Shown here piece by piece: positions 11,273 to 43,784 of a stretch of DNA of 64,000 bases. The translations under genes and the position numbers were made by a program. The DNA is from Eledone cirrhosa (taxonomy: Eukaryota): contig OZ024743.1 of NCBI GenBank assembly GCA_964016885.1, positions 268,646,001-268,710,000 of the forward strand, written 5' to 3'. A model generated the notes under the pieces. It had not been told where the DNA came from. It saw only the letters and a program-made list of their open reading frames with translations, and ran no database searches. How positions within the stretch are numbered: the first letter of the stretch is position 1; the number at the start of each line of letters is the position of its first letter.

Positions 11273-11325
<53 letters not shown>

Positions 11326-12581: not shown

Positions 12582-13005
<424 letters not shown>

Positions 13006-14792: not shown

Positions 14793-17748
14793 TTCTCGTG
14801 TAGCACCCATCCACCATCTGAGTGAGTTTCTTGGTGAGTGTCCAAGTCTCAGACCCGTACAGCAGCACAGACTCCACTAGAGAAATGAAGAGGCGTATCT
14901 TCAGGTCCCCACGAAGGTCCGACTTCTATACCGATCTCAAACTGTGGCACGCCGCCCAGGCTTTGCTCTTTGTCTCAACCACATCATCTTCCGTATTCCC
15001 AAACTTTGCTCCCAAATACAGGAAGTCCTCAACTAATTCCAGGGGCTTCCCGCCTACATTAGTGATCCCCTCTGGCTTTTCAACATTCTCTACCAGACAT
15101 TTTGTCTTAGTCTCATTCATTCTCAGCCCCACACTCATCGACACAGTCTCAACTTCCTGCATCAAATCCTCTGCCCCTTCACTGCATTTGTCACCAAAAC
15201 TATGTCGTCGGCAAATTCAGCATCCGATATCTTTTTCGCCTTAACTCTCCTGCTCTGAGCCGGTGCTACAGAAAAGCCAGAGTCCTGGTGTTTCTCCAGT
15301 GCAAGGCGCATACAATAGTCCACTACGATGATAAAAAGGTAGGGAGCCAATGTACCTCCCTGGAGCACTCCAGCCAGTATCTCAAAGAACTCTGTCATCC
15401 CATCAGGTGTAATGACTTGGGCTTTGGTGTTGGTGTAGAGCAATGATATCAGGTCCACTATCTTCTTGGGGATTCCATAAGCCTGTAAGATCTTCATCAG
15501 ACAGTGACGGTCCACAGAATCAAAGGCCTTCCTAAAGTCAATGAAAACCATGACCGCAAGAAGGCACTTTGCTCTAGCTCCCTCTAATATCCTCCTAAGC
15601 ATCAGGATGTGACTGGTGGTTGATCTTCCCTCTCTGAAGCCGTTCTGGTTGTCCCTGAGCTTATTCTCCATCTCGGGATGGATCCTGTTAAGAATCATAC
15701 TGTTGAGGGTCTTTGCCACAAGTGACGTCAGTGAGGTCCCCCCCCCTCTGTAGTTGTTGATGTTAGAGAGATCTCCCTCCTTTGGCACTGGGACGATGTT
15801 ACTGAACCTCCACTGATTCGGGGCAACTCCTTTCTCCAGTGCCTGGTTACAGAACCCCAGGATGATATCAAAATCACATCTCTTCATCACCTCTGATGCT
15901 ACTATATCTTCTCCATGAGCCTTGCCCTCCTTGATCTTCTTATTGGCTCTCTCAAGCTCCTCTCTGGTGAAGGGCTCTGTCTGAATATCCAGTTCTTCAA
16001 ACAGCTGCCTGATCTCCCCAGTGTTCTGGGCTGTGGAGGCCGGCTCTCCTAGTAGGGTCCTAAAATGGTCTAGCCATTTCCCATCCTATCCTCGGGCCCT
16101 TTTCCATGGATCTAACTAGAACACCTTCTCTTCTTCCCTGTGATCTCGTTGATGATCATTCAGCTCCCTTACGTCTTACATCCAGAACTGCCAACCGCTC
16201 TCTCCACACTTCTGATCTTCTCTATCAGTGCCTCCTCTCTGGCCTCAGTGTAGGAGGTACAGAGTTCTTTCCTCATCACTTCCACATTCTCCTTCCTCTC
16301 CTCCGTAGGATAAGCATAGAATTGATCCTTGGCAGCTTTCGGGTGTTCTCTAGCTGCACACACTTTTGGGTCTGCAGAGCTGACGTGCTTTCTTTTGTTC
16401 TTTTTCCTCGGCACCAGGGTCACACTTGCTTCCACTACTGCATTGGTGAAGTATCCGTACCTCCTCGTCACACTCTCCTCATTCCATCCAATCTCTCTCT
16501 CCTCTGACTCTCCACACATAGCACTGAACTTGTTCCTCACTTCCACTGTGAACCTCTCCTGTAGCTTATCATCTTCATTGAAAGCTCCCCAGTCATAGAT
16601 TGCTCTCCGGGGCCGAGCCTTGCTCTTTCATAAGTTCACCCGGACCTCACTCATAACAAACTGGTAGTCACTACCCAGTGTACTGAAATAGTTGTATGGT
16701 TCTGTGTTCAGAACACTATTCCGACACTTTTTCCTCACCAGAATGAAATCAATCTGGGACTTGGGCAGGTGCATATCTGAGATGTAGGTCCACATCTACC
16801 TCAGATTCTTCCTAAACCTTAGGCTGGTCGCTATCAAATTCGCCTCCAGCAGGGTGTCTCAGTAGTCTTCCATTTCGGTTGGTGTTGTTATGGAAGTACC
16901 AGCAAGGATCTTCACTGCCCTCCTTAATCAGATGTGCATTGAAGTCCCCAGAACAAGCAGGATGTTGTGTGCTTGTGTGGTGTTGACAGCTCTACACACC
17001 TCCTCATGGAACTCTTCCGCACTCACATTACTGTCTCCCTCGGTTGGACTATAGGCTGAGATGACTGTCAGTCTTGGATTTTCATTGAAGATCACCCTCA
17101 ACACTCGCGAGGAGACAGGTATTATTTCCCTCACCAATAGACTGGTTTTTGTGCTGAAAACAAAGCCCACTCCTCCTACAGCAGCATTGGTCATGTTCTT
17201 TCCTGCCGATGTGGTGATGAGCTGGCTCATCTTCCCAATCATCACACTTCTCACGGGCTCATCGTATAGTATCCTGTGTTCTTCGACTGCAAGTATCTGT
17301 ATACCACTCTCCTCGAACACATGACCCAACTTCTCTCTCTTCTCCAGCGTCCGAATAGTCCTCACATGCAAAGTGTCCATTTTCATGGCTATTCTGCAGG
17401 ACAAAACTGCATTCTTTATATTTGTCTCAGAACAGCTGATCCATCATCTACTGGCCCTCCCTGTGGCTCTAAGCCATCAGTGTCATAACGACCAGACTGC
17501 TCCTTGATAGTGTAGTTAGGGGCTCTAACCCTAGTGCTGTTAGATAGTGCTGTTAGATATTTCTTTTCAATGGCTGACAATACCTTACCGGCTCCACTCG
17601 AATAAGGTAGTTATTTAACCCATAAATGGGGCCCTAACAGGTACTACTACTCCGGGCCGGAGCAGACCTGGGAGTTATGACAACAAAGGGGTAAGTCCAA
17701 ATTCTCCACAGTTCCTGAACTCCCGAACTGGAGCCTTGCCACTGGACA
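14793..17748 (-). mobile_element. RTE-clade LINE (APE endonuclease + RT), frameshifted, 3' end missing
   Basis: APE: GVGF, ISAYSPT, QIDFILV. RT: VPKEGD, NYRG, QNGFREGRST, FIDFRKAFDSV, GVLQGGTLAPYLF, FADDI, FLYLG, ESVLLYGSETW. Confidence 0.92.
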
Positions 17749-17765
17749 TATATATATAGAGAGAG

Positions 17766-17829
<64 letters not shown>

Positions 17830-18043
17830 TTCTTTATTTACCATAAAGGCATAAAAAGAAGGGACAAATACAAAGGGGGAGTTTACATACAATCGAATAA
17901 AAAGGGTATAAAATGAAAATAATCGAAAACAACCTCAAAAGGGAGGGGACGTGATGGGGGTTGCACACACCCCCGAAAAAGTGTGCAATCCTTTGCCCGG
18001 GGAGCACATGGAGAAGGTGCTCCCCTCTCCTTCACTTCTTTAC

Positions 18044-21000
18044 CTACAGGATGGTATACAGAGAAGGCCCATTTACACGAGCCATTCTCGCCACTATCAC
18101 CCACCTTTCATAAAACTGGCTGTGGCCAAGCACCTCTATCTCCATTCTTATCCTTCTTCCGAAGTGATATCGGAAGAAGTAGACCAGACTATGGCCAGAG
18201 AGGAAGTTGCCTGACCTCAGACCTTTCAATCGTGTCCACCAAACAACCTCTTTCAACATGGCTATTACGCACAGAAAAACCGCCTTTGCTTCCTTTGTGA
18301 AGAGGGGAGGCGGTTTGATTGTCATCACGGACTCGGCGGTCAATCGAATCGGCGCCACCCGCGACAGCAGTCGTTCGGCGTAGCCCCACAGATCAGCCAC
18401 GCCCGGAAATTGCACCAATGCGTGCGCAAGGGTTTCTTCGTGACGCACGCATCTAGGGCAAATCTTTTTCGAGGGATCCCTGCCCGGGCGCCCGTGTCTG
18501 TAGAGCCTCTCTCGAACGGGTAGAGCCCCCGGTAGCACTGCCAGGCTAGTGACTTCTGGAAGTTGTCCATTGGTCCCGGGCCGAAAGTCCTACCGAACAG
18601 GCTGGCCAGTTCGTCCTCTTCCATGTCCAGCGACTCTCCAAGGGTGTCATCGCCCCTGCTAGCCACCAGCCCTCTATAGAATGATGAGGTGGATTCTCCA
18701 CCGATGGCCTGGCCCGCTTGCCAGAGAGCCCTGAGCGCCTGAGCACACTCAGTGTGCCAGTCTCCCAGTTTTCCGGATCTTTGCTTGACCCAGGACTGCA
18801 GCTCGGTGAGCGAGACGAGTCTCGGAAAGGCTCGTTTCACGAACGGAGCCCACACCGGTTGACCAGTGAGGAATACCTGTAGGTGCCGTAGCCTTAATGC
18901 GTGCCTACGCATCATCAACCACGGCATCCCCAGCCCTCCTTTCGAATGTTGTTGGCAGCAGATGGATCTTCTCACCATAGGAGGGCACTTCTTCCAAAGA
19001 AATTGGAAGAGCATGCGTTCCATGGTGGTGAGTGTTTCCTTAGAGCAAGGCACGACAGTCAGGCGGTAGTAAGTGACGGACGCTATGTAAATGTTCGCCA
19101 CCTCCGCCCGGCCTTTTAGGGACAGCTTACACTTGGCCCATTTCTGGGTTAGTGCAAACACCTTGTTCGTAACCTCGTTCCAGTTCTTTTCCACCTGGAG
19201 GTCCGGTCCAAACCAGACCCCAAGCAACTTTACCGGGCCCTCCGTCCAGTGTCCGACGACACCGTCGGGAGGCATCGGTCTGCCTCTCCACGTTCCGAGT
19301 TGCAGCTCGATGGATTTTTCCCGGTTCAGTTTCGCTCCTGACCTTTCGTAATCCTCCAGTAAGGTACCGATCGCCTCGATCTCCGAGTCGGTCGATACCA
19401 TTACTGTTACGTCATCGGCGTAGGCCGACACCGCTTTGCTCAATCCTGGTTCCAGGTGGATACCCTGCAACAACTCCAACTTCCTCAGTAAAGGCTCGAG
19501 AGTCAATACGTACAGAAGGGAGGAGAGAGGGCACCCCTGTCGAATGGATCGTGTGATTTTTAACGGCTTCGAAAGGTAGCCGTTCACCTTGATCCTAGAA
19601 CAGATGTGGTTGCTATGTAAGACAGTGATCCAGCCTCTGAAAACAGGACCGAACCCAGCCGCCGCTAGCACCGCATCCAGGTAACCATGGTCGACCCTAT
19701 CGAAGGCCTTAGACTGATCCAAGTTGATCAGGGCCCCACCGAAGCCGGGTTTGTTGCCAACCCTCTCTATGATGTATCGCATGAGGTGGATGTTATCATG
19801 AATGGACCTGGATGGGATAGCACATGTCTGCGCATCTCCCACCAGGCTACCCACGACAAGCGCCAACCTCTTTGCTAATACCTTGGCCAAAATCTTTAAC
19901 TCTGTGTTTAGCAGGGTTATGGGCCGAAAATTATTTATACTATCCCCCTTGTTCTCGTCCTTCCTCACCAGCGAGACTACGCCCTTGGCTACAGAACAAG
20001 GAATTCTCCCGTTCTGCTGCCAATTGCAGTAGACCGCTTCGAGGAGTTCGGAGAAGAAGACCGGCATTGCTAAATAAAGTTCGTACGGTATACCATCGAG
20101 ACCTGGAGATTTGCGTCTGCTGCATTGGCTCAGCGCATCCCCGATCTCATCAGCCGAGATTGGTCCTTCGCAGGACTCTGCTTCTTCGCTCGAGAGACGC
20201 GGCAGGCCGTCGAGGTATGGACCGAAATCCACGTCCCCGCCCGGACTCTCGCCTCCCCCAAATAATCGGGCAAAGTGCCTTTGAAAGGCCTCGCACATCT
20301 GCTTAGGCTCCCGGATCTCCCGTCCATCCTCGTCTTGCAACGACCGGATGGTGGATCGATTTCCACTCTTAGCTTCTGTCACGCGGGCCCAGCCAACGGC
20401 TTTGGCCCCCTCATTACCTAGAGCACGTATTTTACTTCGAATGACGCAGCCTTCGTGCTTTGCATCGAAAAATTGGTTCAAGGCCGTCCTCGATGCCAGT
20501 ACTCTGGCCACATCTTCGCTCTTGATTGCCTCTTCTAATTTACCAGTTAATTCTTTCTCGTTTCTATTCCTATCGGCAGCTAACATCTTGCTATAACTTA
20601 TTGATTCTATTCTAATCTCTCTTTTGAGAGATGCCCACCATCGGTTGTTGACGATTGCACCCGTCAACCTCTCCTTAACTAATCTGCTAATCCGGTTTCT
20701 GTAAGTCTCTTTTGCCGGTAAAGACAAATTAAGTTTCCAGTAACCGGGACCCTGTTTATGTGTTTTCTCGAGATTGACTACGCAGGTCACTAATTTGTGA
20801 TCCGTATAGCCAACCGTGAGCATTTCTGGACAGCTTAATATGTCCCTATCCTTACTTCTAACTAAGAATCTATCTAAGTACGATCTAGATTGACCACTGT
20901 GGTTCGTCCAAGTCCAGGTAAGCACAGTTGGAAAATCTAGTCGATATCTATCGACCAAGTTAAAACGGTCGAGTAACCCCTTGAGGCTGTTACACCCCCC

Positions 21001-21477
21001 TCTATTAGGACATGCTCCTGCATAGTCCCAACGTGCATCTAGGATGTCATTCCAATCCCCCGCTAGAAGCAGGGAACGCGACGTTCCCAGAAAAGTCTCC
21101 AAACGCTGGAAGAAGTCGGGCCGTTCAGCTCCGAAAGGGGTGTAGACGGCGACTAGTCTCAAGGCCGCACCTTCACTACTGCCAACGTCTAGCACCAACA
21201 AACGACCCTCCGGGCCCGAGTGAACAACCTGTACGGCAAGACCCAGGTGTTTTTGCAGTAGTACGACAACCTCACCCCCACCTCCAGGTTGACAGAGAGA
21301 TGCATGCACCTCAAAGTCATCGAAGGTAGGGGCCAGCTGCCGCACGACGCTGATCCGAGTCTCACAGATAACCATTACATTTATACCACATGACCTGAGG
21401 TCATTTAGAAGCTTTGCTTGCTTCCAAGTTGAGCCCAGGCCACGTGCATTCAAACATCCTACTCTTAACACATCCAT
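18044..21477 (-). CDS. LINE ORF2: APE endonuclease, reverse transcriptase, C-terminal CCHC; one frameshift near 18530
   Basis: LNARGL, ETR, AGDWN, SYLDRF, TDH, SPGLDG, RPITLLN, LDQSKAFDRVDH, RQGCPLS, AYADD; CPRC..ETLAHAL in the 18044-18538 frame. Confidence 0.93.
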
Positions 21478-21510
21478 GTGGGCGGCAAAGCCAAAGGAGA
21501 GTGTAGAGAC

Positions 21511-22838
21511 CTACCTTTCTGCTTCCCAGGGTTCGGGTCGCACGACTTCCATGGGGTCGGGGGTGTTGGGTGAAGGGGTGTCTTGTGGTGGTGTGGGGTC
21601 GTCAGTGTGTGGTGGGGTTGGGGTGTTTGGAGTTGTGTTGGGGAGGGGAAGGGGAGGGGTAAAGCTTTTTAGTAGGACGCGGTTTATGGGTTTGACAGAG
21701 GGTGGTCCTACGTCCTCCTTAAAATCCTTTTTTAGTTGTTGGTAGAGGTTCATTGGGATCTTTATTAATTTTAAATGTGGGTAGTTTTCTGAAGAAACAA
21801 AGTTTACACCTTCGGTTTGTACCGAAGGATTATTGTTTATGAGTTCATTTAATTTATTATTGTTTCTGTTGATGTAAGTATAGTGTAATGTGTTTTTTTC
21901 GGATGGTATGAGTGTTTCGAAGAGGGGAGGGGCAGGTTTGGTTTTGTTTGTTGCTGGAGGGGTGTTTTGTGTTTTGTTGGATTGTGTTGACATTTGGGTG
22001 GGGGTTGTTTGGCCTTGTGTGTTTTGCACATGTTTTCTTTTTTTCCTTTTAATCTGTCTGAAGGACTCCGTTTCTTCCTCCGAATTCGTTGGGTTATCTT
22101 CAGTGTTGGAGGGAAGAGGTGTTTGCTGGTAATGTTTCCGTGTTGGTTTTCTTTGTGGGGGAGATGGATGTCACTATGTTAGACTGTGTTGTGTGTTGTG
22201 GCTGCGGTGGTTGTGTTGTTTTATTGAGTGAGGGGTTGGGTGGGCCTGTATTTTGTTTTGGGGTAATGTGTTGTGACTGTTTGTGTTGTGGTGGAGGTGT
22301 AGTTTTACTGAGGGACGGGTTGGGTGGGACTGAGTTTTGTTGTTTGTTTATCTGTTGTGGTGGTGGTGGTGGAGCTGGTGTTGGTAGCAGGGTTTTCTTT
22401 TTGTTGAGTTGGGGACAAGCCGCCTTCAGGTGCCCTCTGCCTGCACAGATATGACAGGACGGCCTTCTCCCCTCCACGCTAATGTTTATATACCCGTGGC
22501 CCTCTAATAGGATTCTGAAGGGTATTTGGGCGATGCGTTCAGGCTTCATTTGCACTACAAGTTCTATACCTGTTCCACTGAACGCATTGCCTGTGGTTTT
22601 CCCAATGGAAATCACGTTGTCATTCGCTGGATCGATGAAGCCAGCTATGAGCCAGCAGTAGTCCACATCTGGCATCATTGCATCCAGCCATATGCGTTGA
22701 GTTCTTTTACCCATATAAGATGGATAAAAGGTAAAATTTTTCGAACGAATCGGTGACAAAGCACATTTTTTTGCCGCCGATTCGTTCTTCATAATAATCG
22801 CTAGGCTTCCATACAGTCTGTCTTTTCTTATGAAAGTG
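21511..22838 (-). pseudogene. LINE ORF1 (gag-like) remnant
   Basis: CHICAGRGHLKAAC (CX2CX4HX4C) followed by a Pro/Thr/Gln-rich region. The ORF-track N-terminus beyond 22838 is read-through into the retrozyme repeat. Confidence 0.75.
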
Positions 22839-23037
22839 GTATGTATACGTACATACATATATGTATACAGATGTACAGTAGTATGTATATATATACATAC
22901 ATGCACACATATATTATATATATGTACGTATGGGTTTACCGAACATTTATTATAATGTTCAGTTTGTGAACAAACAGCCCGAATTACGCCGTACAGTGTT
23001 CGGCAACCATCGTCGCCTTTTTGTTCAACACTGACAC

Positions 23038-23090
23038 AGGAACGATGTACTAGTTTCAAGCTTATTAGCTATCGTCAGCATAGTATACCT
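23038..23090 (-). ncRNA. Type I hammerhead ribozyme (mirror of 32077-32129); mutated copy at 23469-23521
   Basis: Reverse complement of AGG-TAT-ACTATG-CTGACGA-TAGCT-AATA-AGCTT-GAAA-CTAG-TA-CATCGT-T-CCT. Confidence 0.8.
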
Positions 23091-23661
23091 TCCTGTCAGA
23101 TAATTGAACGTTTGAAAGTATATACTTTCCTTATGCATATTAACGGCTGAGCAGGCTAATTTGCATATCGATTGAGTTAGTCGGCCGGGCGAACCGAAAA
23201 CTATAAATGGAAAAGGATGAAACGAAATTTTATTTCTCACTCTTAGTACGGCAGATACTTAAATGTAAGTATGTACACGTACATACACATATGTATACAG
23301 ACGTACAGTAGTATGTATATACATACATACATGTACACATATATATATATGCACGTATGGGTTTACCGAACATTTATTATAATGTTCCGTTTGTTTGTAA
23401 ACAAACAGCCCGAATTACGCCGTACAGTGTTCGGGAACCATCGACGGCTTTTTGTTCAACACTGACACAGGAACGATGTATTAGTTTCAAGCTTATTAGC
23501 TATCGTGAGCATCGTATACCTTCCTTACAAACAAGCCGAACATTATAATAAATGTTCGGTAAACCCATACGTATATGTATATGTGTGCATGTATGTATAT
23601 ATATATACATACTACTGTACGTATGTATACATATATGTATGTACGTATACATACATACATT

Positions 23662-23697
<36 letters not shown>

Positions 23698-23761
23698 TAT
23701 ATAAATGTATGTATGTATACGTACATACATATAAGTATACAGATGTACACTGGGTTTTACG

Positions 23762-23798
<37 letters not shown>

Positions 23799-23818
23799 AT
23801 ATATATATATATTTAATG

Positions 23819-23899
<81 letters not shown>

Positions 23900-24128
23900 A
23901 TAATAATAAATTTGAAGACTAAAATCCAAAGAGGGCTCAATAAGGATAAATATATATCAAATATAAGAACCAATAAATATATATATATATATATACATGG
24001 AAAGTTATATTTAAAATTGTTGGGTTACAACTAGTAAATATTTATAACTGATATAAAAGCACTCGACAAATATTTGGAGTATATTTACAGTATTAAATAA
24101 ATGGAAACTATATTTATAAAACCATATT

Positions 24129-24194
24129 TATTTCATTATATATATTTCGGGGATATCATATTAACAATATGCTATGCCTTCCTCAGACAAAATA
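24129..24194 (-). ncRNA. Hammerhead ribozyme in the 3' pseudo-LTR of the Penelope-like element (left arm)
   Basis: Mirror of 30959-31024. Confidence 0.8.
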
Positions 24195-25613
24195 CAATAT
24201 AAACAGTTTTATAGATAAATATATTCGACATACCGTTACAACACCGACTTCCATTTGAAGAGGTTTAAGCTGGCAGTGAAAAAATTTTACACAGAGAGAA
24301 AGAAAGAGAGAAAAAAAGAAAGAAAGACAGAAAACGAAGAAAAGGAAGAAAAAGAAGAAATGCATGGAACAAAATAGAGAGATGGAAAGATAGATAAAGC
24401 GAAGAACTTCATGTAAAGAAACAGAAAGAGATATATATATACAGAGAGAGAGGAAATAGAGATAAATACATATATATATAGAAAATTAGGTAGTGGGAGG
24501 TCATTTTGAGTAAATGTATCAATGATACATTTATTTATTTATTTATTTATTTAGCTCAAGTATTAATGTAAGGGAGATATATATATATAGAGAAAAAATA
24601 TATAGAGAGGAAAAAATAGAGAGAGAAAAAAAATTTAAAAATAGCCAGATATATTCGAGGCGTAAAAACCCTATGTATTAATGTATTAGCATTTATAAAA
24701 CTTACACTATATTGTAAATATCAGTATTCCTGAATGAGACAAGTATCCATAGTGTGTGAAAATTAATTATCTTATGTTTAGTTTTAAAAAAATTCATATG
24801 TTTATGTGACAGCTACAAACATCCATGCGAATCCACATGATTCACTCTGCAAACTCTAAGTTCACGGAAAACATTCTCAATGTGGTATAAAAATTTGAGC
24901 ATACATATATGTGTATTATTATTCCTGTCTTTACTCTTCAAGATTATCTATCAAGCAGAAATAGAGAGCAGATTTCAATATACTAATAAAAATATATATC
25001 AGAAACAAAACTAAAAAAATAAATAAATAAAAAGATAACAATAATAATAATAAGTAAAAATAAGTAATAATAAAATAGAAAACTAAAAAAATATTACCAA
25101 AGAATATTACATAATAAAAATATTACATATTAAAAATATTACGTATTAAAAAATATTACGTATTAAAAATTTACATATTAAAGATATTAAAAATAAAAAT
25201 AAAAAATAAAAAATAATTATAAAATACTACAATAATAAAAAATAAAAATAAAAATAAACCCCAAAGATCAACCCTTCAAAGTTAATTGACAATATATTGC
25301 CAAGTTCATTACAAGACAAAGCCAAAAATTATCTATCAAATCACATCTAGCAAAGATCATTTCAAAAAGTTTATGATGTCCAAATTGGTCTACATATGTT
25401 CTTATATTTAATATAGAAGTTTATCTAGTGTAAGGTTTATTCAAAAAATTTGGAGCATCAGCTTTTAGGGTAGCTTAATTTTTCATGAGGAATGTTTAAA
25501 TAAAAATAAAATAAAAATAAACAATAAAAAGAATAAAAAGAAGGAATCAAAAATTTAGGAATCAAAAATTTATCGGCTAGTTTCCCATATAAATATAAAT
25601 CAAACTAAATATA

Positions 25614-27469
25614 CTACATTTTAAATTTAAATTTATATTTAAACGTTGAGTTTAATCTATGTTTGCAACAACTGAATAAATTTGTCCGTAGGTTAAGGGA
25701 ATTTTTAGATTTTAGTATAAAGAATATCTCCTCTGCGCAGAGGTCACATGTCTCAGAGGATGAATTAAAAGGAATCCCTCTTGAGACTATATTCCAAGCC
25801 GTCGAATATCTAACGTTATCTAGCTTAAGTTGCCAGAGTACGCCTGATAGTGCCGTTGAAGATTTTTTACTTGGATCTGTGAAAGAATTCTTGTGGTTAT
25901 TATAGCGAAGTTTAAATTCCGTCGATGTGGAACCGACGTAGTTAAAAGAATTAGAGTCAGTATTAACATTACAATTGTATACTATATTTTTAACTAAGCA
26001 GTTGTTATTTAACGGACATTTAGATCTATCTCTACAGTTACATTTGTTAACTTGTATATTATTTATGCTATTATCACTAGGTTTTAAGTTCCTATTATTT
26101 ATTCTATTAATATTTTGTGCTAAATTTTTGGTGGATGAGTAGGTTAATTTAATTGTATGCCTATTGAAAATTGAGTGATACCTATGTGTTCTAGGGAAGC
26201 GATTATCAAGAGCTTTGAAAAATAATTTAGCGATGTGGGTTTTAATGTTTAGTGAGAAAGGGGGGGCAAACCAAATTATGTTCCTAGTTCTATTTCTTTT
26301 TTGGCCTTTGGAATTATTGTAATGCTTTCTATTATAGTTGTTAATGTTGTTGCCGTAATTAAAAAAGTTGTTACTTTGTTTAGTTTGTCTATCATTATCT
26401 ATGTACACAATCTTATCAGCATATCCTGCCCTAGCTAATGCTTCATTATAGTATTGGGCCTTTTCGTCGAAAATCTTTCTATTCGACGAGATCCTAGAGA
26501 TACGTTTTTGAACTGAGTTTACTATAGTGTTTTTGACAGATCTGGGGTGGTTAGAGTTAAAGTTGACATAGTTTAAGTTTTCATTCAACTTGTGAAAAGG
26601 ATAGTGGAGACATGTGTTGAGATTTAATGTTATATCTAGGAAATTGACTATTCTATGGTTGTTCTCAATTTCTATTTTAAGGTTAAAGTAATTAAAAAAT
26701 TTTGTAATTTGTTTACATTTTCTATTTAGTTCAGGGTTATTATTATTAATAAGTAAAAGCATGTCATCCCTATATAAACCTCCGGTAGTACCAGGTATTT
26801 TCCTATGTAGCGAATTGATTAAAAATAAGCCCACAAGGTCAGTTACCTGAGCTGAGTCGGAAGATCCCATAGTTATGTCAAAATTGCTATCTCTATCTGC
26901 TCTGGTCCATAATTTGTCATTAAATTCTATCAAAGTTTTCCTAGCCGATAATATAATATGCATTTCTTTGCTAGTTAGGTCAGTATGTTTGAATGCGTAA
27001 TTTAGTGCCTTATTTAGTAGACTAGGGGTAATAGAAGAATAATAGTTAGCTATATCAAGTTGAATAAACCTATTATTATTGTTATATTTAATTTGCCTAA
27101 ACCACTCAACAACCTCTCCAGTTCCCTTCCACAAGCTCAGGTTAGATACACAATCCAAGTTCTTAATTTGCTGTATCACCCTGTCAAGAATGTTTTTGCT
27201 TAATTTGCCCAGGTCCGATTTTGAAGGTGCGATCAATCTAACTGGCAGGTCATTTTCAAAATTCCTCTTGTGGTCCTTCATATTGATCTTCGGTTTCCTG
27301 GGCACGAAAGGTTGTGTTCTGTTCTCAATTTCCAACTCGTGCATTATACAAGATGCTTCGACATTCATTTTCTCAAGTTCGGCCTTATCTGCTACCTTGT
27401 ACTTTTTCCTCAGCTCTTTCAGTATGAGGCCATTATACATGTCTTTCCGCACTCCATAGAGGTTGTTGG
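25614..27469 (-). CDS. Penelope-like element polyprotein (RT + C-terminal GIY-YIG endonuclease), 5'-truncated, uninterrupted
   Basis: VRLIAP, LDIANYYSSI, TMGS, LYRDD, FLDITL, CxCx5C linker (CNCRDRSKC), IVY..YVGST..FKLRYNNH, CDLC..E, LN. Confidence 0.95.
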
Positions 27470-29539
27470 AGAATCAGGTGGCGTGCATTCCACTTTGATA
27501 AATCTAATGCAGACGAAAATGTCTCGGACTTAAACAAAGTTTTCAAATCTAAAAGAAATCCACCCCCTAACAAACTTTTATCTGACTTTGAAAACGATAT
27601 AATTTCTATCATACAAGGGGTCAAATTCAAGAGAAACTTCAAAGGCCAGGAATATCTGAAAGGCATTAAGGATAACATTGACAGCTTAGAGAAAACTGAG
27701 AAGATCTTGGTGAAATCTGACAAGACCAACAACCTCTATGGAGTGCGGAAAGACATGTATAGCAGATAAGGCCGAACTTGAGAAATGAATGTCGAAGCAT
27801 CTTGTATAATGCACGCGTTGGAAATTGAGAACAGAACACAACCTTTCGTGCCCAGGAAACCGAAGATCAATATGAAGGACCACAAGAGGAATTTTGAAAA
27901 TGACCTGCCAGTTAGATTGATCGCACCTTCAAAATCGGACCTGGGCAAATTAAGCAAAAACATTCTTGACAGGGTGATACAGCAAATTAAGAACTTGGAT
28001 TGTGTATCTAACCTGAGCTTGTGGAAGGGAACTGGAGAGGTTGTTGAGTGGTTTAGGCAAATTAAATATAACAATAATAATAGGTTTATTCAACTTGATA
28101 TAGCTAACTATTATTCTTCTATTACCCCTAGTCTACTAAATAAGGCACTAAATTACGCATTCAAACATACTGACCTAACTAGCAAAGAAATGCATATTAT
28201 ATTATCGGCTAGGAAAACTTTGATAGAATTTAATGACAAATTATGGACCAGAGCAGATAGAGATAGCAATTTTGACATAACTATGGGATCTTCCGACTCA
28301 GCTCAGGTAACTGACCTTGTGGGCTTATTTTTAATCAATTCGCTACATAGGAAAATACCTGGTACTACCGGAGGTTTATATAGGGATGACATGCTTTTAC
28401 TTATTAATAATAATAACCCTGAACTAAATAGAAAATGTAAACAAATTACAAAATTTTTTAATTACTTTAACCTTAAAATAGAAATTGAGAACAACCATAG
28501 AATAGTCAATTTCCTAGATATAACATTAAATCTCAACACATGTCTCCACTATCCTTTTCACAAGTTGAATGAAAACTTAAACTATGTCAACTTTAACTCT
28601 AACCACCCCAGATCTGTCAAAAACACTATAGTAAACTCAGTTCAAAAACGTATCTCTAGGATCTCGTCGAATAGAAAGATTTTCGACGAAAAGGCCCAAT
28701 ACTATAATGAAGCATTAGCTAGGGCAGGATATGCTGATAAGATTGTGTACATAGATAATGATAGACAAACTAAACAAAGTAACAACTTTTTTAATTACGG
28801 CAACAACATTAACAACTATAATAGAAAGCATTACAATAATTCCAAAGGCCAAAAAAGAAATAGAACTAGGAACATAATTTGGTTTGCCCCCCCTTTCTCA
28901 CTAAACATTAAAACCCACATCGCTAAATTATTTTTCAAAGCTCTTGATAATCGCTTCCCTAGAACACATAGGTATCACTCAATTTTCAATAGGCATACAA
29001 TTAAATTAACCTACTCATCCACCAAAAATTTAGCACAAAATATTAATAGAATAAATAATAGGAACTTAAAACCTAGTGATAATAGCATAAATAATATACA
29101 AGTTAACAAATGTAACTGTAGAGATAGATCTAAATGTCCGTTAAATAACAACTGCTTAGTTAAAAATATAGTATACAATTGTAATGTTAATACTGACTCT
29201 AATTCTTTTAACTACGTCGGTTCCACATCGACGGAATTTAAACTTCGCTATAATAACCACAAGAATTCTTTCACAGATCCAAGTAAAAAATCTTCAACGG
29301 CACTATCAGGCGTACTCTGGCAACTTAAGCTAGATAACGTTAGATATTCGACGGCTTGGAATATAGTCTCAAGAGGGATTCCTTTTAATTCATCCTCTGA
29401 GACATGTGACCTCTGCGCAGAGGAGATATTCTTTATACTAAAATCTAAAAATTCCCTTAACCTACGGACAAATTTATTCAGTTGTTGCAAACATAGATTA
29501 AACTCAACGTTTAAATATAAATTTAAATTTAAAATGTAG
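27470..29539 (+). CDS. Penelope-like element polyprotein, right-arm copy with ~85 extra N-terminal codons but disrupted at ~27762
   Basis: Spacer encodes RIRWRAFHF..LSDFEND..VKSDKTNNLY in frame. A ~41-bp deletion creates a TAA; the rest matches the left copy (ORF 27785-29539). Confidence 0.93.
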
Positions 29540-31253
29540 TATATTTAGTTTGATTTATATTTATATGGGAAACTAGCCGATAAATTTTTGATTCCTAAAT
29601 TTTTGATTCCTTCTTTTTATTCTTTTTATTGTTTATTTTTATTTTATTTTTATTTAAACATTCCTCATGAAAAATTAAGCTACCCTAAAAGCTGATGCTC
29701 CAAATTTTTTGAATAAACCTTACACTAGATAAACTTCTATATTAAATATAAGAACATATGTAGACCAATTTGGACATCATAAACTTTTTGAAATGATCTT
29801 TGCTAGATGTGATTTGATAGATAATTTTTGGCTTTGTCTTGTAATGAACTTGGCAATATATTGTCAATTAACTTTGAAGGGTTGATCTTTGGGGTTTATT
29901 TTTATTTTTATTTTTTATTATTGTAGTATTTTATAATTATTTTTTATTTTTTATTTTTATTTTTAATATCTTTAATATGTAAATTTTTAATACGTAATAT
30001 TTTTTAATACGTAATATTTTTAATATGTAATATTTTTATTATGTAATATTCTTTGGTAATATTTTTTTAGTTTTCTATTTTATTATTACTTATTTTTACT
30101 TATTATTATTATTGTTATCTTTTTATTTATTTATTTTTTTAGTTTTGTTTCTGATATATATTTTTATTAGTATATTGAAATCTTCTCTCTATTTCTGCTT
30201 GATAGATAATCTTGAAGAGTAAAGACAGGAATAATAATACACATATATGTATGCTCAAATTTTTATACCACATTGAGAATGTTTTCCGTGAACTTAGAGT
30301 TTGCAGAGTGAATCATGTGGATTCGCATGGATGTTTGTAGCTGTCACATAAACATATGAATTTTTTTAAAACTAAACATAAGATAATTAATTTTCACACA
30401 CTATGGATACTTGTCTCATTCAGGAATACTGATATTTACAATATAGTGTAAGTTTTATAAATGCTAATACATTAATACATAGGGTTTTTACGCCTCGAAT
30501 ATATCTGGCTATTTTTAAATTTTTTTTCTCTCTCTATTTTTTCCTCTCTATATATTTTTTCTCTATATATATATATCTCCCTTACATTAATACTTGAGCT
30601 AAATAAATAAATAAATAAATAAATGTATCATTGATACATTTACTCAAAATGACCTCCCACTACCTAATTTTCTATATATATATGTATTTATCTCTATTTC
30701 CTCTCTCTCTGTATATATATATCTCTTTCTGTTTCTTTACATGAAGTTCTTCGCTTTATCTATCTTTCCATCTCTCTATTTTGTTCCATGCATTTCTTCT
30801 TTTTCTTCCTTTTCTTCGTTTTCTGTCTTTCTTTCTTTTTTTCTCTCTTTCTTTCTCTCTGTGTAAAATTTTTTCACTGCCAGCTTAAACCTCTTCAAAT
30901 GGAAGTCGGTGTTGTAACGGTATGTCGAATATATTTATCTATAAAACTGTTTATATTGTATTTTGTCTGAGGAAGGCATAGCATATTGTTAATATGATAT
31001 CCCCGAAATATATATAATGAAATAAATATGGTTTTATAAATATAGTTTCCATTTATTTAATACTGTAAATATACTCCAAATATTTGTCGAGTGCTTTTAT
31101 ATCAGTTATAAATATTTACTAGTTGTAACCCAACAATTTTAAATATAACTTTCCATGTATATATATATATATATATTTATTGGTTCTTATATTTGATATA
31201 TATTTATCCTTATTGAGCCCTCTTTGGATTTTAGTCTTCAAATTTATTATTAT

Positions 31254-31258
<5 letters not shown>
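29540..31258 (+). mobile_element. Long AT-rich 3' region / pseudo-LTR of the Penelope-like element, ending in (TA)n
   Basis: Follows the stop codon and contains an HHR. The distal ~250 bp is homologous to the solo element at 41437-41760. Confidence 0.75.
30959..31024 (+). ncRNA. Type I hammerhead ribozyme of the Penelope-like pseudo-LTR
   Basis: TATTTTGT-CTGAGGA-AGG..CATATT-GTT-AATATG..CCC-GAAA-TATATA-TA-ATGAAATA. Stem I 8 bp with two G-U pairs, palindromic stem III. Confidence 0.8.
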
Positions 31259-31348
<90 letters not shown>

Positions 31349-31368
31349 CATTAAATATATATATATAT

Positions 31369-31405
<37 letters not shown>

Positions 31406-31469
31406 CGTAAAACCCAGTGTACATCTGTATACTTATATGTATGTACGTATACATACATACATTTATATA

Positions 31470-31505
<36 letters not shown>

Positions 31506-32076
31506 AATGTATGTATGTATACGTACATACATATATGTATACATACGTACAGTAGTATGTATATATATATACATACATGCACACATATACATATACGTAT
31601 GGGTTTACCGAACATTTATTATAATGTTCGGCTTGTTTGTAAGGAAGGTATACGATGCTCACGATAGCTAATAAGCTTGAAACTAATACATCGTTCCTGT
31701 GTCAGTGTTGAACAAAAAGCCGTCGATGGTTCCCGAACACTGTACGGCGTAATTCGGGCTGTTTGTTTACAAACAAACGGAACATTATAATAAATGTTCG
31801 GTAAACCCATACGTGCATATATATATATGTGTACATGTATGTATGTATATACATACTACTGTACGTCTGTATACATATGTGTATGTACGTGTACATACTT
31901 ACATTTAAGTATCTGCCGTACTAAGAGTGAGAAATAAAATTTCGTTTCATCCTTTTCCATTTATAGTTTTCGGTTCGCCCGGCCGACTAACTCAATCGAT
32001 ATGCAAATTAGCCTGCTCAGCCGTTAATATGCATAAGGAAAGTATATACTTTCAAACGTTCAATTATCTGACAGGA

Positions 32077-32129
32077 AGGTATACTATGCTGACGATAGCT
32101 AATAAGCTTGAAACTAGTACATCGTTCCT
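32077..32129 (+). ncRNA. Type I hammerhead ribozyme
   Basis: CTGACGA..GAAA-CTAG-TA; stem II AGCT/AGCT with AATA loop; one mismatch in stem I. Confidence 0.8.
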
Positions 32130-32491
32130 GTGTCAGTGTTGAACAAAAAGGCGACGATGGTTGCCGAACACTGTACGGCGTAATTCGGGCTGTTTGTTCA
32201 CAAACTGAACATTATAATAAATGTTCGGTAAACCCATACGTACATATATATAATATATGTGTGCATGTATGTATATATATACATACTACTGTACATCTGT
32301 ATACATATATGTATGTACGTATACATACTTACATTTAAGTATCAGCCGTACTAAGAGTGATAAGTGAAATTTCGTTTCATTCTTTTCCATTTATAGTTTT
32401 CGGTTCGCCCGGCCGACTAACTCACTCGATATGCAAATTAGGCTGCTCAGCCGTTAATATGCATAAGGAAACGTTCAATCATCTGACAGGA

Positions 32492-32544
32492 AGGTGTATG
32501 ATGCTGACGATAGCTAATAAGCTTGAAACTAGTACATCGTTCCT
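32492..32544 (+). ncRNA. Type I hammerhead ribozyme
   Basis: AGG-TGT-ATGATG-CTGACGA-TAGCT-AATA-AGCTT-GAAA-CTAG-TA-CATCGT-T-CCT. Confidence 0.85.
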
Positions 32545-32658
32545 GTGTCAGTGTTGAACAAAAAGGCGACGATGGTTGCCGAACACTGTACGGCGTAATT
32601 CGGGCTGTTTGTTCACAAACAAACCGAACATTATAATACATGTTCGGTAAACCCATAC

Positions 32659-32709
<51 letters not shown>

Positions 32710-32895
32710 CTTGTATGTATATATATACATACTATTGTACGTCTGTATACATATATGTATGTACGTATACATACTTACATTTAAGTATCAGCCGTACTAA
32801 GAGTGAGAAATGAAATTTAGTTTCATTCTTTTATATATATATATATATATATTGTTATACTTGGGGAGGGTCATATTTGTGTAATATTGCCAGAA

Positions 32896-32947
<52 letters not shown>

Positions 32948-34147: not shown

Positions 34148-34345
34148 TGTCCTGGGTATGACATTAAACTACATCCAGTGGCAAGGCTCCAGTTCGGGAG
34201 TTCAGGAGCTGTGGGGAATGTGGAGATACCCCTTAGTCGTTATCACTCCCAGGTCTGCTCTGGCCCGGACTAGTAGTATCTGCTAGGGCCCCATTTATGG
34301 GTTAAATAATTATATTATTCGAGTGGCGCCGGTAAGGTATTATCA
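34148..34345 (+). mobile_element. Non-autonomous copy of the RTE 5' region
   Basis: 34173-34340 is homologous to the reverse complement of 17563-17747 (TCCAGTGGCAAGGCTCCAGTTCGGGAGTTCAGGA..GGGCCCCATTTATGGGTTAAATAA). Confidence 0.75.
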
Positions 34346-34564
34346 GCCACTGAAAAATAAAAGCCCTAGATATGTTTGTGTGAGCGTGAGTGTGTGGGTA
34401 TGTGTGTGCGCGAAGTATGTGTTTATGTTAACGTTTACTGCTGTGTAAATAACTCTGCTGTTTAAGTGTTATCACTTTACTAAGAATGACACTATAAAAC
34501 ACACGTTAGTGCCACAAACAAAAATATCAAATATAAGTTCAATTCATAGCTGGGCTTTCAGAAT

Positions 34565-35899: not shown

Positions 35900-36378
35900 G
35901 ATCCACAACAATAACAACGGCAACAACTTCAAAACGGCATAGAGAAAATCGTGATGACATTATGAGAAAAAGACAGTAGCTACGAACATCATCAACCACA
36001 ACAACCACAACAATAAGCACAACATCAATAACACTAACGATATCAACAATACTAAGAAAAACAAGAAGAATGATAAAGACAGCAACAACATCACATGGAA
36101 CTAGTAATCACGAAACGAAAGCTTTGCTAACGACAATGACAACGATACCAAAACAACATCAGCAACAAGAACAACAACAAAAATGACTGCAAAAGTAATC
36201 CCAACATACAATAACAGCAACAACAAATAAACATACAATTGCGCAAGAGAATGTCGGCATCAACGACAGCATCAATGGCAACAGTAGCAACAGCAACAAC
36301 AAAAAGGATAATGGCACAACAAAAGCAATAACAGTTCAACAACAACAACAACAACAACAGCAGCAGCAACAACAACAA

Positions 36379-36413
<35 letters not shown>

Positions 36414-36495
36414 TCAACAACAGCAGCAACAACAATATGGATAATGGCACAACAAAAGCAATAACAGTTCAACAACAACAACAACAACAGCAGCA

Positions 36496-36546
<51 letters not shown>

Positions 36547-37740
36547 ACAACAACAGCAACAACAATATGGATAATGGCACAACAAAAGCAATAACAGTTC
36601 AACAACAACAATAACGACTACAGCAACAACAACAACAGCAATAACAATATGGATAATGGCACCACAAAAGCAATAACAGTTCAACAACAACAACGACAAC
36701 AGCAACAACAAAAATACAAATACCAACACAACAAGAATAGTATGAACAACAACAACAGCAGCAGAAATGACAAGGAAAGTATGAGCAGCAGCAAAATAAG
36801 CAGCAATACAACAGCAACAAAACGTGCTGCAGCAAAACAAGAACAATGATATCAATAACAGAAATAGCAAAAACAACAACAACAATAAAAACACCATCTA
36901 TAACAACACTAACAACAATAACGCCAGCAGCAAAAACAGCATCAATAACAACAGAAGTAACAACAACAACAATAACAACAGCAACAACAGCAGCAACAAC
37001 AACCACAATATCAACAACGACAACACCAATAACAGCAGCAACAACAACAACAATATCAACAACGACAACAGCAACAACAGCAGCAGGAAATATAATAGCA
37101 ACAATAACAACAGAAGCAACAACAGCAACAACAACAGCAACAACAGCAGCAACAAATAGAATAGTAACAATAACAACAGAAGCAACAGCAACAACAATGT
37201 CAACAACAACAACAACCACAACAACAACAACAACAACAACAGCAGCAGCAGCAGCAACAAAAACAGCATCATTAACATCAGAAGCATGAACAACAATATC
37301 AACAATAACAACAGCAACAGCAGCAACAACAGCAGCAGCAAAATCAGCATCAATAACATCAGAAGCAATAACAACAACAACAGCAACAACAGCAACAACA
37401 ACAACAATATCAACAACGACAACAGCAACAACAGCAACTACAACAACAACAACAACAGTATCAACAACGACAACAGCAACAACAACAACAACAATATCAA
37501 CAACGACAACAGCAACAACAGCAACTACAATAACAACAACAACAGTATCAACAACGACAACAGCAACAACAACAACAACAATATCAACAACGACAACAGC
37601 AACAACAACAATATCAACAACGACAACAACAACAACAGTAGCAGGAAATATAATAGCAACAATAACAAAAATATTTACTTCGGCAATAACAAAAACAACA
37701 GTAACAACAGTAACAACAACAGTTACAACAACAACAAAAG
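35900..37740. repeat. Complex (CAA)n/(CAG)n array with higher-order ~100-130-bp units
   Basis: Recurrent GGATAATGGCACAACAAAAGCAATAACAGTTC anchors at ~36306, 36439, 36569, 36650. Confidence 0.9.
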
Positions 37741-41426: not shown

Positions 41427-41436
41427 CAGAGGTTAT

Positions 41437-41754
41437 ATTTAATTTGTTGGGATAAACAAGCTAAAATATTTTTATAACTGATATAAAGCACTCAAACAAA
41501 TTATTAGAGTAAATATACAATATATTAACAAATGGAAACTATATTTATAAAACGATATTTAACGGTTGGAGCTTCCTGGATAGCTCCAACCGTTAAGTTT
41601 GCATTTTTTCAGGGTATGTCAATATTTATTTATAAAACTAATCTGTATTATATTTTATCTGATGAAAGCGCACCATAATCTGCCTTGGTGGCCCTTGAAA
41701 TATGTATAATAGAATAAATATTGTTTTATAAATATAGTTTCCATTTGTTAATAT

Positions 41755-41762
<8 letters not shown>
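41437..41762. mobile_element. Solo fold-back pseudo-LTR related to the Penelope-like element, with HHR at 41651-41716
   Basis: 41437-41560 resembles 24010-24130. HHR: TATTTTAT-CTGATGA-AAG..CACCA..TGGTG..CTT-GAAA-TATGTA-TA-ATAGAATA. Hairpin TTAACGGTTGGAGCT..AGCTCCAACCGTTAA at the junction. Confidence 0.85.
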
Positions 41763-41809
<47 letters not shown>

Positions 41810-41815
<6 letters not shown>

Positions 41816-42250
41816 GGAAAACATGAAACGAAATTTCATTTCCCACACTTAGTACGGCTGTTACTTAAATAAAAGTATTTACACGTACATACATATATGT
41901 ATACAGACGTACAGAAGTATGTATATATATATACATACATGCACACATATATATATGTACGTATGGATTCACCGAACATTTATTATAATGCTCGGTGTGT
42001 TTGTAAACAAACATCCCGTATTAAGCCGTAGTGTCTAGCAACCATCGTTGCTCGTTTGTTCAACACTGATAAAGGAACGCTGTACTAGTTTCAAGCTTAT
42101 TAGCTATCGTCAGCAACGTATACCTTCCTGCCAGATTGTTGAAAGTATATACTTATCTTATGCATATTAACAGCTGAGTAGCCCAATTTGCATATCGAGT
42201 GGGTTAATCGGCCGGGTGCACCGAAAACGATAAACGGAAAAAATGAAAAA
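41810..42250 (-). mobile_element. Retrozyme family A monomer (~420 bp) with a short terminal redundancy; HHR at 42073-42125
   Basis: ATAAACGGAAAA.ATGAAA at both ends; HHR stem I ACGTTG/CAGCGT, CTGACGA, GAAA-CTAG-TA. Confidence 0.88.
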
Positions 42251-42289: not shown

Positions 42290-42473
42290 GTAAGCTGTGT
42301 CTAGGTGAATAGATAGTCCGCGTATGATTTGACGAATTTCGAGTGTGAGTACAGTTTATTTGGTAGGGGTCATGGGTACAGGTTTGCCTTCAGTTTAGGG
42401 TATTTGCTGATGGTGAGTAGAATGATTGCAGCAATAAATAACGTTCTTATTTGCATATATATTTATATATATC

Positions 42474-43660: not shown

Positions 43661-43784
<124 letters not shown>

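What the first reader, a model, noticed from the sequence alone, without database searches (positions are those of the whole stretch)
22839..32328. 9.5-kb palindrome: a head-to-head Penelope-like element that also duplicated ~1 kb of downstream retrozyme array
Inverted 5'-truncated copies are known for Penelope-like elements. Here the mirrored arm extends past the element's 3' end and (TA)n into the neighbouring family A array. It stops mid-unit at 22839, fused to a 5'-truncated L1/Tx1 ORF1, while the right-hand array continues to 32832. Three explanations: cDNA snap-back synthesis running through the integration site into flanking DNA; a read-through transcript co-mobilising the retrozymes; or an assembly fold-back artefact. 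Small arm differences (41+1-bp deletion, substitutions at ~27337 and ~24969) argue weakly against a pure artefact.
Basis: partly seen in the sequence, partly recalled or inferred. Interest (0 to 1): 0.7.

Follow-up and report, generated by a model that had tools for sequence, protein, structure and literature searches.

The report
Penelope mirror copy overruns its target
A young Penelope-type retrotransposon sits as a 9.5-kb mirror image whose second arm also duplicates about 1 kb of the neighbouring ribozyme repeats, likely because the new DNA folded back and kept copying past the insertion site, which would be a rare clue to how these elements make inverted copies.

Summary
Observation confirmed. 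Arms 22839-27469 and 27726-32328 are 99.9% identical around a 256-bp spacer. The element carries the motifs of the Hydra clade of Penelope-like elements and has its own hammerhead in the 3' UTR. The family A array is therefore a separate, older element (units 5-8% apart), and the mirror runs 1.07 kb past the element's 3' end. Two other head-to-head loci in the window have arms ending at different points, each in microsatellite, with no flank mirrored. The big left arm ends without (TA)n and shows no A/G differences although a read-through RNA would be largely double-stranded. Best reading (0.42): cDNA snap-back during integration, copying through the (TA)n into a resident array, then end-joining to an L1/Tx1 element. 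Rivals: read-through RNA carrying the array (0.32 over two forms), later DNA-repair fold-back (0.11), assembly artefact (0.12). The order of L1 and palindrome is unresolved. Inverted Penelope copies, R2 snap-back and L1 fold-backs are known; I found no report of flank overrun for Penelope elements. One locus, no reads.

The parts
17830..22838 (-). L1-group (L1/Tx1-like) LINE lacking its 5' end; 3' end abuts an (ATAG)n tract at 17748-17829. ORF1 remnant with CCHC knuckle; ORF2 with AP endonuclease and RT. No stop codons; two frameshifts (ORF1 between 22100 and 22170, ORF2 near 18520, at or beside C/G runs).
22838..22839 (.). Outer junction: end of left arm joined directly to L1 ORF1; no (TA)n, no N, no significant homology (7/8 match to the arm's continuation, reached by 5-7% of random L1 positions).
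22839..27469 (-). Left arm (4,631 bp): 5'-truncated Penelope-like copy plus mirrored (TA)n and family A sequence.
22839..23896 (-). Mirrored flank: (TA)n, inverted family A fragments, unit 1 and the first 256 bp of unit 2; identical to 31257-32328 except for (TA)n length.
25614..27469 (-). Open Penelope-like ORF of the left arm (about 617 codons, no stop): RT core with YRDD, CxCX5C linker, C-terminal GIY-YIG-type domain; starts at about codon 125 of homologues.
27470..27725 (+). 256-bp spacer: N-terminal coding part of the right copy (RWR and SDKT motifs), beginning at about codon 35 of homologues, so the right copy is also 5'-truncated.
27726..32328 (+). Right arm (4,603 bp); carries the 41-bp and 1-bp deletions and a substitution within 91 bp of the spacer; ORF broken by two stops between the deletions.
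29540..31256 (+). AT-rich 3' UTR (1.7 kb) of the element, ending at (TA)n.
30958..31026 (+). The element's own type I hammerhead motif (core at 30967; 9 of 10 stem I positions pair); mirrored at 24186 on the minus strand. Descriptor match only; no Rfam hit.
31257..31409 (.). (TA)n tract at the element's 3' end; likely target site (inferred).
31410..31641 (.). Two short family A fragments facing each other across a (TA)n (about 31410-31463 plus strand, 31504-31641 minus strand); the latter is head-to-head with unit 1.
31642..32832 (+). Family A tandem array: units of 431 and 415 bp and a 345-bp partial unit, 4.6-7.7% apart. Type I hammerhead cores at 31658 (core altered), 32089 and 32504. Ends in (TA)n.

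Best explanation
The locus is a 5'-truncated Penelope-like copy with Hydra-clade motifs and a near-identical mirror arm that includes 1.07 kb of downstream (TA)n and retrozyme DNA, likely made when the new cDNA folded back during integration and was copied as DNA past the insertion site into an array that likely was already there. Steps: (1) inferred: the element's endonuclease cut the (TA)n at about 31257 beside the resident family A array and its RT made minus-strand cDNA that stopped at 27470. (2) Inferred: the cDNA 3' end re-primed on itself at 27726, leaving the 256-bp loop that is now the spacer. (3) Inferred: DNA-templated synthesis copied 3.5 kb of cDNA, crossed the (TA)n junction and went on 1.07 kb into chromosomal DNA, stopping at 32328. 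(4) Inferred: that end was joined without (TA)n to the left flank inside L1 ORF1, losing target DNA of unknown length; alternatively the L1 arrived later and clipped a longer arm. (5) Inferred: the right-arm 41-bp deletion arose afterwards, when the plus strand was made across the hairpin or later. Shown: geometry, arm identity, motifs, junction sequences, and the contrast with two control loci. The structure is a by-product with no evident function; both copies lack the ORF start.
For: Geometry matches one continuous minus strand: antisense to 27470, then sense from 27726. This is the pattern called snap-back for R2, where upstream target DNA is joined to antisense insert (PMC11371274, passages). 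The fold point lies at the element's 5' truncation and no other piece of this protein family occurs in the window (79 homologues searched by tblastn, 0 hits outside the palindrome). The element has its own hammerhead and no BLAST similarity to family A, so the array is foreign to it. Units differ by 4.6-7.7% while arms differ by 2 substitutions, so the array is much older. In 2 of 2 other head-to-head loci aligned (41430-41760, 9608-11267) the arms end at different 3' points, each in microsatellite, and no flank is mirrored. 7 of 8 free family A 3' ends aligned run into (TA)n; the left arm's end does not. A read-through RNA would hold a long duplex (-243 kcal/mol over 31400-31920, z -19), yet the arms show 0 A/G differences and unit 1 shows no editing excess (A>G 5 of 99 A, G>A 5 of 54 G; inverted fragment T>C 1 of 52). 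Such duplexes are commonly hyper-edited in animals (PMC5625713, passages).
Against: The left arm keeps the 14 codons that 12 of 12 aligned homologues have, so it cannot be a copy of the right arm as it stands; a later deletion must be added. Three of four non-microsatellite differences lie within 91 bp of the spacer (P about 2e-4 allowing either end), which fits independent cDNA ends just as well. The left end lies only about 8 nt before one of two recurring family A 3' ends, as RNA priming would give (roughly a 1 in 10 coincidence, my estimate). A purified Penelope protein primes on both strands, starts inside the RNA and does not need hammerhead cleavage (PMC11167929, parts 1-2 read). Penelope capture of downstream host DNA is reported in Adineta (PMC3846280, passages). 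The control loci suggest ordinary inverted copies here arise by separate priming, so this would be an exception. Microhomology at the fold cannot be tested without an intact copy. One family A end (12582) also lacks (TA)n. No reads, no empty allele and no donor search were possible.
Confidence: 0.42

Rival explanations
1. Hybrid: a read-through RNA from a donor locus (element + (TA)n + array) was primed at the array's own 3' end (32832) in a (TA)n target. The cDNA then snapped back and the copy stopped 0.5 kb short of the primer. The array was carried here as a 3' transduction and no chromosomal flank was copied.
For: Explains arm identity and the (TA)n-free left junction equally well. 32832 is a recurring family A 3' end. 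The related element at 41.4-41.8 kb also abuts family A through a (TA)n, so donors of this layout are plausible. Uncleaved RNA is the main substrate in vitro (PMC11167929).
Against: Needs an unedited, uncleaved RNA through a long duplex and three hammerheads with intact cores (30967, 32089, 32504). Family A shares no detectable sequence with this element, so its priming site may belong to another RT. Still needs the later right-arm deletion.
Confidence: 0.22
2. Two separate cDNAs from read-through RNA were primed from the two ends of a break and joined 5'-to-5'; the L1 may have clipped the left one later.
For: Explains directly why only the right arm has the 41-bp deletion. Matches the separately ending arms of the control loci and two-strand priming in vitro. 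The left end is near a family A 3' end. The L1 is young: no stops in 986 ORF2 codons, under about 2.2% substitution.
Against: No (TA)n at the left junction; 0 A/G differences and 13 of 14 (TA)n runs and 6 of 6 homopolymers identical between arms; no continuation of the arm beyond the L1 3' end (11.4-17.75 kb compared with 32.85-36 kb).
Confidence: 0.1
3. RT-independent repair: after an ordinary insertion, a break or replication template switch inside the element folded back and made an inverted duplication with deletion.
For: Same end product. Fold-back with a single-copy spacer is established for human inverted duplications (PMC3907307, passages). Clustered changes near the fold fit error-prone repair synthesis (general knowledge).
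Against: The fold coincides with the 5' end of a young element of a class that routinely makes head-to-head copies (PMC8557442; two more such loci in this window). The spacer (256 bp) is below the 766-70,466 bp sequenced in that study.
Confidence: 0.11
4. Assembly artefact from fold-back or amplification chimeras.
For: Arms nearly identical. Fold-back reads make up about 0.6% of nanopore genomic reads and can contain spacer sequence (PMC12870357, passages); amplified DNA gives false inverted duplications (PMC6218980, passages). The 1-bp deletion and the L1 frameshifts lie at or beside homopolymers, hinting at residual read error.
Against: Needs a second, overlap-free junction into 22 kb of unique sequence; the window has no N. 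The fold sits where biology predicts. A 41-bp deletion with 2-bp microhomology differs between arms. Long arms with a 280-bp spacer are stable in wild-type yeast (PMC7999016, passage).
Confidence: 0.12

Closest known systems
Hydra-clade Penelope-like elements, e.g. Hydra-1_Obim (Craig et al. 2021, PMC8557442)
   Same: RW[K/R] and DKT motifs, CxCX5C linker, C-terminal GIY-YIG-type domain without CCHH, hammerhead near the 3' end, (TA)n target, inverted 5'-truncated copy (known for Penelope-like elements generally).
   Different: A different family (best database hit 42%; visibly different from the Hydra-1_Obim protein in the supplement). Longer (over 3.7 kb with a 1.7-kb 3' UTR versus generally under 3 kb). 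The inverted copy is 4.6 kb and extends beyond the element's 3' end.
Snap-back 5' junctions of R2-protein insertions (Zhang et al. 2024, PMC11371274)
   Same: cDNA 3' end primes on the cDNA itself; upstream target DNA joined to antisense insert.
   Different: Engineered R2 system in human cells; the passages read do not describe a copy running through the 3' junction for a kilobase.
L1-mediated fold-back junctions (PMC11702581)
   Same: A break end extended by reverse transcription self-anneals, giving an inverted duplication that includes flanking DNA.
   Different: Large chromosomal rearrangements in cultured cells with the cDNA present once in the loop; here the cDNA itself is mirrored and only about 1 kb of flank is duplicated interstitially.
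Non-LTR retrozymes (Cervera and de la Pena 2020, PMC7229834; Li et al. 2026, 10.64898/2026.07.22.740005)
   Same: Family A: tandem low-GC units of about 420 bp, each with a type I hammerhead with very short stem III.
   Different: No similarity to the adjacent element's 3' end; shows its own head-to-head fragments and two recurring 3' ends; activity untested.
Adineta vaga Penelope structures (Arkhipova et al. 2013, PMC3846280)
   Same: Head-to-head repeats read as self-priming; capture of 0.9-1.5 kb host DNA near the 3' end; mobilisation of host sequence.
   Different: Captured DNA there lies between the ORF and the 3' pLTR or between pLTRs, not mirrored beyond the element.

Membership tests
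Hydra-clade Penelope-like element | Single ORF with RT and C-terminal GIY-YIG endonuclease | tested here: met
   617-codon open frame aligns end to end with homologues, YRDD and YVGST present. Pfam gave 0 families for it, so the call rests on homology and motifs.
Hydra-clade Penelope-like element | N-terminal RWK motif; DKG changed to DKT | tested here: met
   RIRWR (R for K, as in the three closest homologues fetched) and SDKT in the spacer frame.
Hydra-clade Penelope-like element | CxCX5C linker; no CCHH; CxxC and CxH around conserved E and N | tested here: met
   CxCX5C at residue 478, CxxC before E at 576, CxH at 603.
Hydra-clade Penelope-like element | Hammerhead near the 3' end | tested here: met
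   Descriptor hit at 30967, conserved at the related locus 41659; 9 real hits versus 0-1 in each of 10 shuffles. Rfam found no hammerhead.
Hydra-clade Penelope-like element | Insertion into (TA)n | tested here: met
   3' end abuts (TA)n at 31257.
Hydra-clade Penelope-like element | RT phylogeny groups with reference Hydra families | not tested
   Reference sequences were seen only as supplement excerpts; no tree was built.
Hydra-clade Penelope-like element | Generally shorter than 3 kb (a tendency, not a rule) | tested here: not met
   The truncated right copy already spans 27470-31256 (3,787 bp).
Canonical Penelope inverted insertion | Inverted 5'-truncated copy at the 5' end | tested here: met
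Canonical Penelope inverted insertion | Both copies end at the element's 3' end, with or without a short tail | tested here: not met
   The mirror runs 1,072 bp past it; the control loci do meet it.
Non-LTR retrozyme (family A) | Tandem 150-450 bp low-GC units | tested here: met
   431 and 415 bp units plus a partial third; GC 25-33% over 31-33 kb.
Non-LTR retrozyme (family A) | Complete type I hammerhead in at least two consecutive units | tested here: inconclusive
   Cores intact in units 2 and 3, but unit 2 has a stem I mismatch and unit 1 an altered core.
Non-LTR retrozyme (family A) | Self-cleavage and circular RNA expression | not testable with these tools
   Needs in vitro transcription and RNA data.
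Fold-back inverted duplication | Single-copy spacer between near-identical arms | tested here: met
   256 bp.
Fold-back inverted duplication | Short inverted microhomology at the fold | tested here: inconclusive
   None visible outside the arms; any inside them needs the intact element's sequence upstream of 27470.
Long-read fold-back artefact | Support only from single symmetric fold-back reads | not testable with these tools
   No reads available; both outer ends continue into unique sequence without N.

The most novel reading that the evidence does not exclude
A Hydra-type Penelope element carried an unrelated hammerhead retrozyme array to a new site on its read-through RNA and mirrored it: a genomic record of retrozymes being moved in cis by Penelope machinery as a kilobase 3' transduction, which would tie retrozyme spread directly to these elements and predict donor loci with the same tail.
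Probability: 0.3. Interest if true: 0.65.

Novelty: new variant of a known kind. Interest (0 to 1): 0.42.

Why it matters
How Penelope-like elements make their inverted copies is unsettled (PMC8557442 calls these features of the cycle undefined), and how non-LTR retrozymes are mobilised is left open in the 2026 preprint. An inverted arm that crosses the element's 3' end separates DNA-templated from RNA-templated routes, and the routes predict different things: a resident array in the empty allele, or a donor with the same tail. If snap-back overrun is real and recurrent, these elements would make kilobase inverted duplications of host DNA with local deletion, a small-scale rearrangement route in animals rich in them. 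As one unverified locus built from known ingredients it is a testable lead, not a new system.

Tried and rejected
Rfam: 0 hits at gathering score in the whole window; at E<=10 over 30800-32900, 135 hits, mostly TA-rich miRNA models, no hammerhead; treated as noise. Pfam: 0 families for both Penelope ORFs. Idea that family A is this element's own pLTR: rejected, no similarity and the element has a different hammerhead. Naiad assignment: rejected, the endonuclease is C-terminal and the motif is DKT. Continuation of the left arm beyond the L1's 3' end: not found; the 17564-17747 match to 34174-34356 is an 89.6% dispersed repeat, not a mirror. Missing L1 5' part elsewhere in the window: not found by blastn or by tblastn with 12 of 75 ORF1 homologues. 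Ordering L1 and palindrome by decay: failed, both are young. Homology at the outer junction: not significant (5-7%). Hairpin bypass as cause of the 41-bp deletion: the segment folds better than 85-92% of 1,812 ORF windows, not significant. Host identification: not achieved; one named octopod hit at 36% among 79, none useful among the 120 listed of 1,785 for a neighbouring LINE; a cluster look-up could not be made. Octopod remains a guess, partly from recall. No tRNA genes. No structure prediction was run. The bacterial genome collection was not scanned as it cannot hold this locus; viral and metagenome contigs were closed and stayed unchecked. Literature searches for flank overrun or retrozyme co-mobilisation by Penelope elements found no such report; the library lacks most subscription papers, including early Drosophila virilis Penelope work.
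Full report
Observation. The palindrome is real in the sequence. The arms are 22839-27469 (4,631 bp) and 27726-32328 (4,603 bp) around a unique 256-bp spacer. They differ by a 41-bp and a 1-bp deletion on the right, substitutions at 27337/27816 and 24969/30184, and a pure (TA)n of 62 versus 76 bp. 13 of 14 (TA)>=5 runs and 6 of 6 homopolymer runs match. Two substitutions in about 4,560 bp is 0.044% (95% interval 0.005-0.16%). If the host were an octopus and the calibration in PMC13282606 applied (distance 0.09 = 25 My; passages), my hand arithmetic gives about 60 thousand years (7-220). RT or read errors would lower this and gene conversion between arms would raise it.

The element. The left arm holds an open frame of about 617 codons with 79 homologues at E<=0.001 among 7,999 candidates scored, best 42%; Pfam finds nothing. 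The spacer is the N-terminal coding part of the right copy: 45 of 79 homologues have a match starting in or just before it, most near their residue 35. So both copies are 5'-truncated, the right at about codon 35 and the left at about codon 125. Motifs RWR, DKT, CxCX5C, CxxC, CxH and a C-terminal endonuclease without CCHH match the Hydra clade as defined in PMC8557442 (section 11 read; other passages; supplement excerpts). No tree was built. A descriptor scan finds the element's own type I hammerhead at 30967, mirrored at 24186 and conserved in a related fragment at 41659 (9 hits in the window versus 0-1 in each of 10 shuffles). Rfam did not detect any hammerhead. The element ends at the (TA)n at 31257. 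The 41 bp kept on the left are ancestral: 12 of 12 aligned homologues have those 14 codons; at the 27337 substitution 7 of 12 have an acidic residue like the left arm and 1 of 12 has the right arm's residue (12 of 79 homologues were aligned).

The array. Family A has units of 431 and 415 bp and a partial third, 4.6-7.7% apart, each with a type I hammerhead motif: altered core in unit 1, weak stem I in unit 2, intact in unit 3. It fits non-LTR retrozymes as described in PMC7229834 (passages) and the 2026 preprint (parts 1-3 of 5 read). It shows no similarity to the element. It is therefore a separate, older element, and the mirror runs 1,072 bp beyond the Penelope 3' end. Family A pieces elsewhere in the window end at two recurring points (about unit positions 264 and 314-320), and 7 of 8 free 3' ends aligned run into (TA)n; the exception is at 12582. 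The left arm ends at position 256 with no (TA)n.

The left neighbour. An L1-group element on the minus strand (17830-22838) has AP endonuclease and RT domains and an ORF1 lacking about 90-190 residues relative to its longer homologues. It has no stop codons and two frameshifts at or beside homopolymer runs. It is young too, so whether it came before or after the palindrome is unresolved. Neither its 5' part nor a continuation of the arm beyond it was found. Tx1 membership was not tested.

Internal controls. Two other head-to-head loci were aligned. At 41430-41760, a related 3' fragment, the two copies end about 80 nt apart, each in microsatellite. At 9608-11267, 238-bp arms at 99.6%, one copy runs about 90 bp further, each ending in (TA)n; its Penelope identity rests only on layout and weak motifs (no tblastn hit). 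Neither mirrors flanking DNA. The ordinary inverted insertion here thus looks separately primed, and the large palindrome departs from it.

Mechanism. Read on the minus strand, the locus is antisense element up to 27470 followed by sense element from 27726, which is what a cDNA that re-primes on itself gives. This is described as snap-back for R2 insertions (PMC11371274, passages), self-priming was proposed for Penelope elements (PMC3846280, passages), and L1-extended ends form fold-backs (PMC11702581, passages). I favour a DNA-templated mirror because the arms share flank and repeat lengths, the left end lacks (TA)n, and there is no editing trace: a read-through RNA would fold into a long duplex, yet arms show no A/G difference and unit 1 no A>G excess. 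The editing argument is moderate; germ-line editing in this host is unknown. Against it, the left arm cannot be a copy of today's right arm, three differences cluster within 91 bp of the spacer, the left end is about 8 nt from a recurring family A end, and Penelope protein primes both strands internally without needing ribozyme cleavage (PMC11167929, parts 1-2 of 4 read). Whether the array was resident (overrun, 0.42) or came on a read-through RNA that then snapped back (0.22) cannot be told from this window. Two separate cDNAs get 0.10, RT-independent fold-back 0.11 (PMC3907307, passages), artefact 0.12. These figures are judgements.

Artefact. Fold-back reads and amplification chimeras exist (PMC12870357 and PMC6218980, passages), and homopolymer slips suggest some residual error. 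But an artefact needs a second junction without overlap into unique sequence, and the window has no N. A comparable repeat with a 280-bp spacer is stable in wild-type yeast (PMC7999016, passage), so persistence is plausible.

Novelty and verdict. Inverted Penelope copies, (TA)n targeting, retrozyme arrays, snap-back and fold-backs are all known. Six searches found no report of a Penelope inverted arm that overruns into flank or of a retrozyme array carried by one; subscription papers and preprint supplements were not visible and could hold such cases. The host is probably an octopod but this was not established. New variant of a known kind; interest 0.42: a single, unverified but cleanly testable locus bearing on two open mechanistic questions.

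Noticed in passing
window 41430-42248: Small head-to-head pair of 3' fragments related to the main element (77-83% identity), with a hammerhead at 41659 and a perfect hairpin in the spacer, abutting a minus-strand family A unit through (TA)n. Both loci of this element type in the window touch family A.
   Followed up: yes
window 9608-11325: Another head-to-head structure: 238-bp arms at 99.6%, 1.1-kb spacer holding a dispersed repeat and a decayed frame with an endonuclease-like stretch; one arm has a 90-bp tail. Probably a different Penelope-like family.
   Followed up: partly
window 31410-31900 and 12582-12901: Family A itself forms head-to-head and tail-to-tail fragments and has two recurring 3' ends about 55 nt apart, resembling the Penelope tail signature; this suggests Penelope-type mobilisation of the retrozyme.
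   Followed up: partly
window 9012-9350 (minus) and 43460-43700 (plus): Diverged relatives of family A with different hammerhead stems II (cores at 9339 and 43473); at least three retrozyme subfamilies in 64 kb.
   Followed up: partly
window 27760-27783: The 41-bp and 1-bp deletions sum to 42 bp and restore the frame, but two stops lie between them.
   Followed up: yes
window about 14800-17450 (minus): A second, more decayed LINE (RT Pfam hit at 15165-16085; close unnamed homologues up to 84% over part), probably RTE-like.
   Followed up: partly
window 17564-17747 and 34174-34356: 184-bp dispersed repeat (89.6%) with a microsatellite tail; the L1's 3' end abuts the tail of the first copy.
   Followed up: partly
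window 42465-42788 and 43055-43379: 325-bp direct duplication at 97.5% identity, 590 bp apart, nature unknown.
   Followed up: no
window 36000-37740 and 53570-55100: Long degenerate (CAA)n and (TTG)n arrays with higher-order periods, about 70% alike in inverted orientation and giving long spurious ORFs.
   Followed up: no
window 7232-7313 and 8050-8865: A 39-bp hairpin-forming tandem repeat and an 800-bp CT-rich satellite.
   Followed up: no
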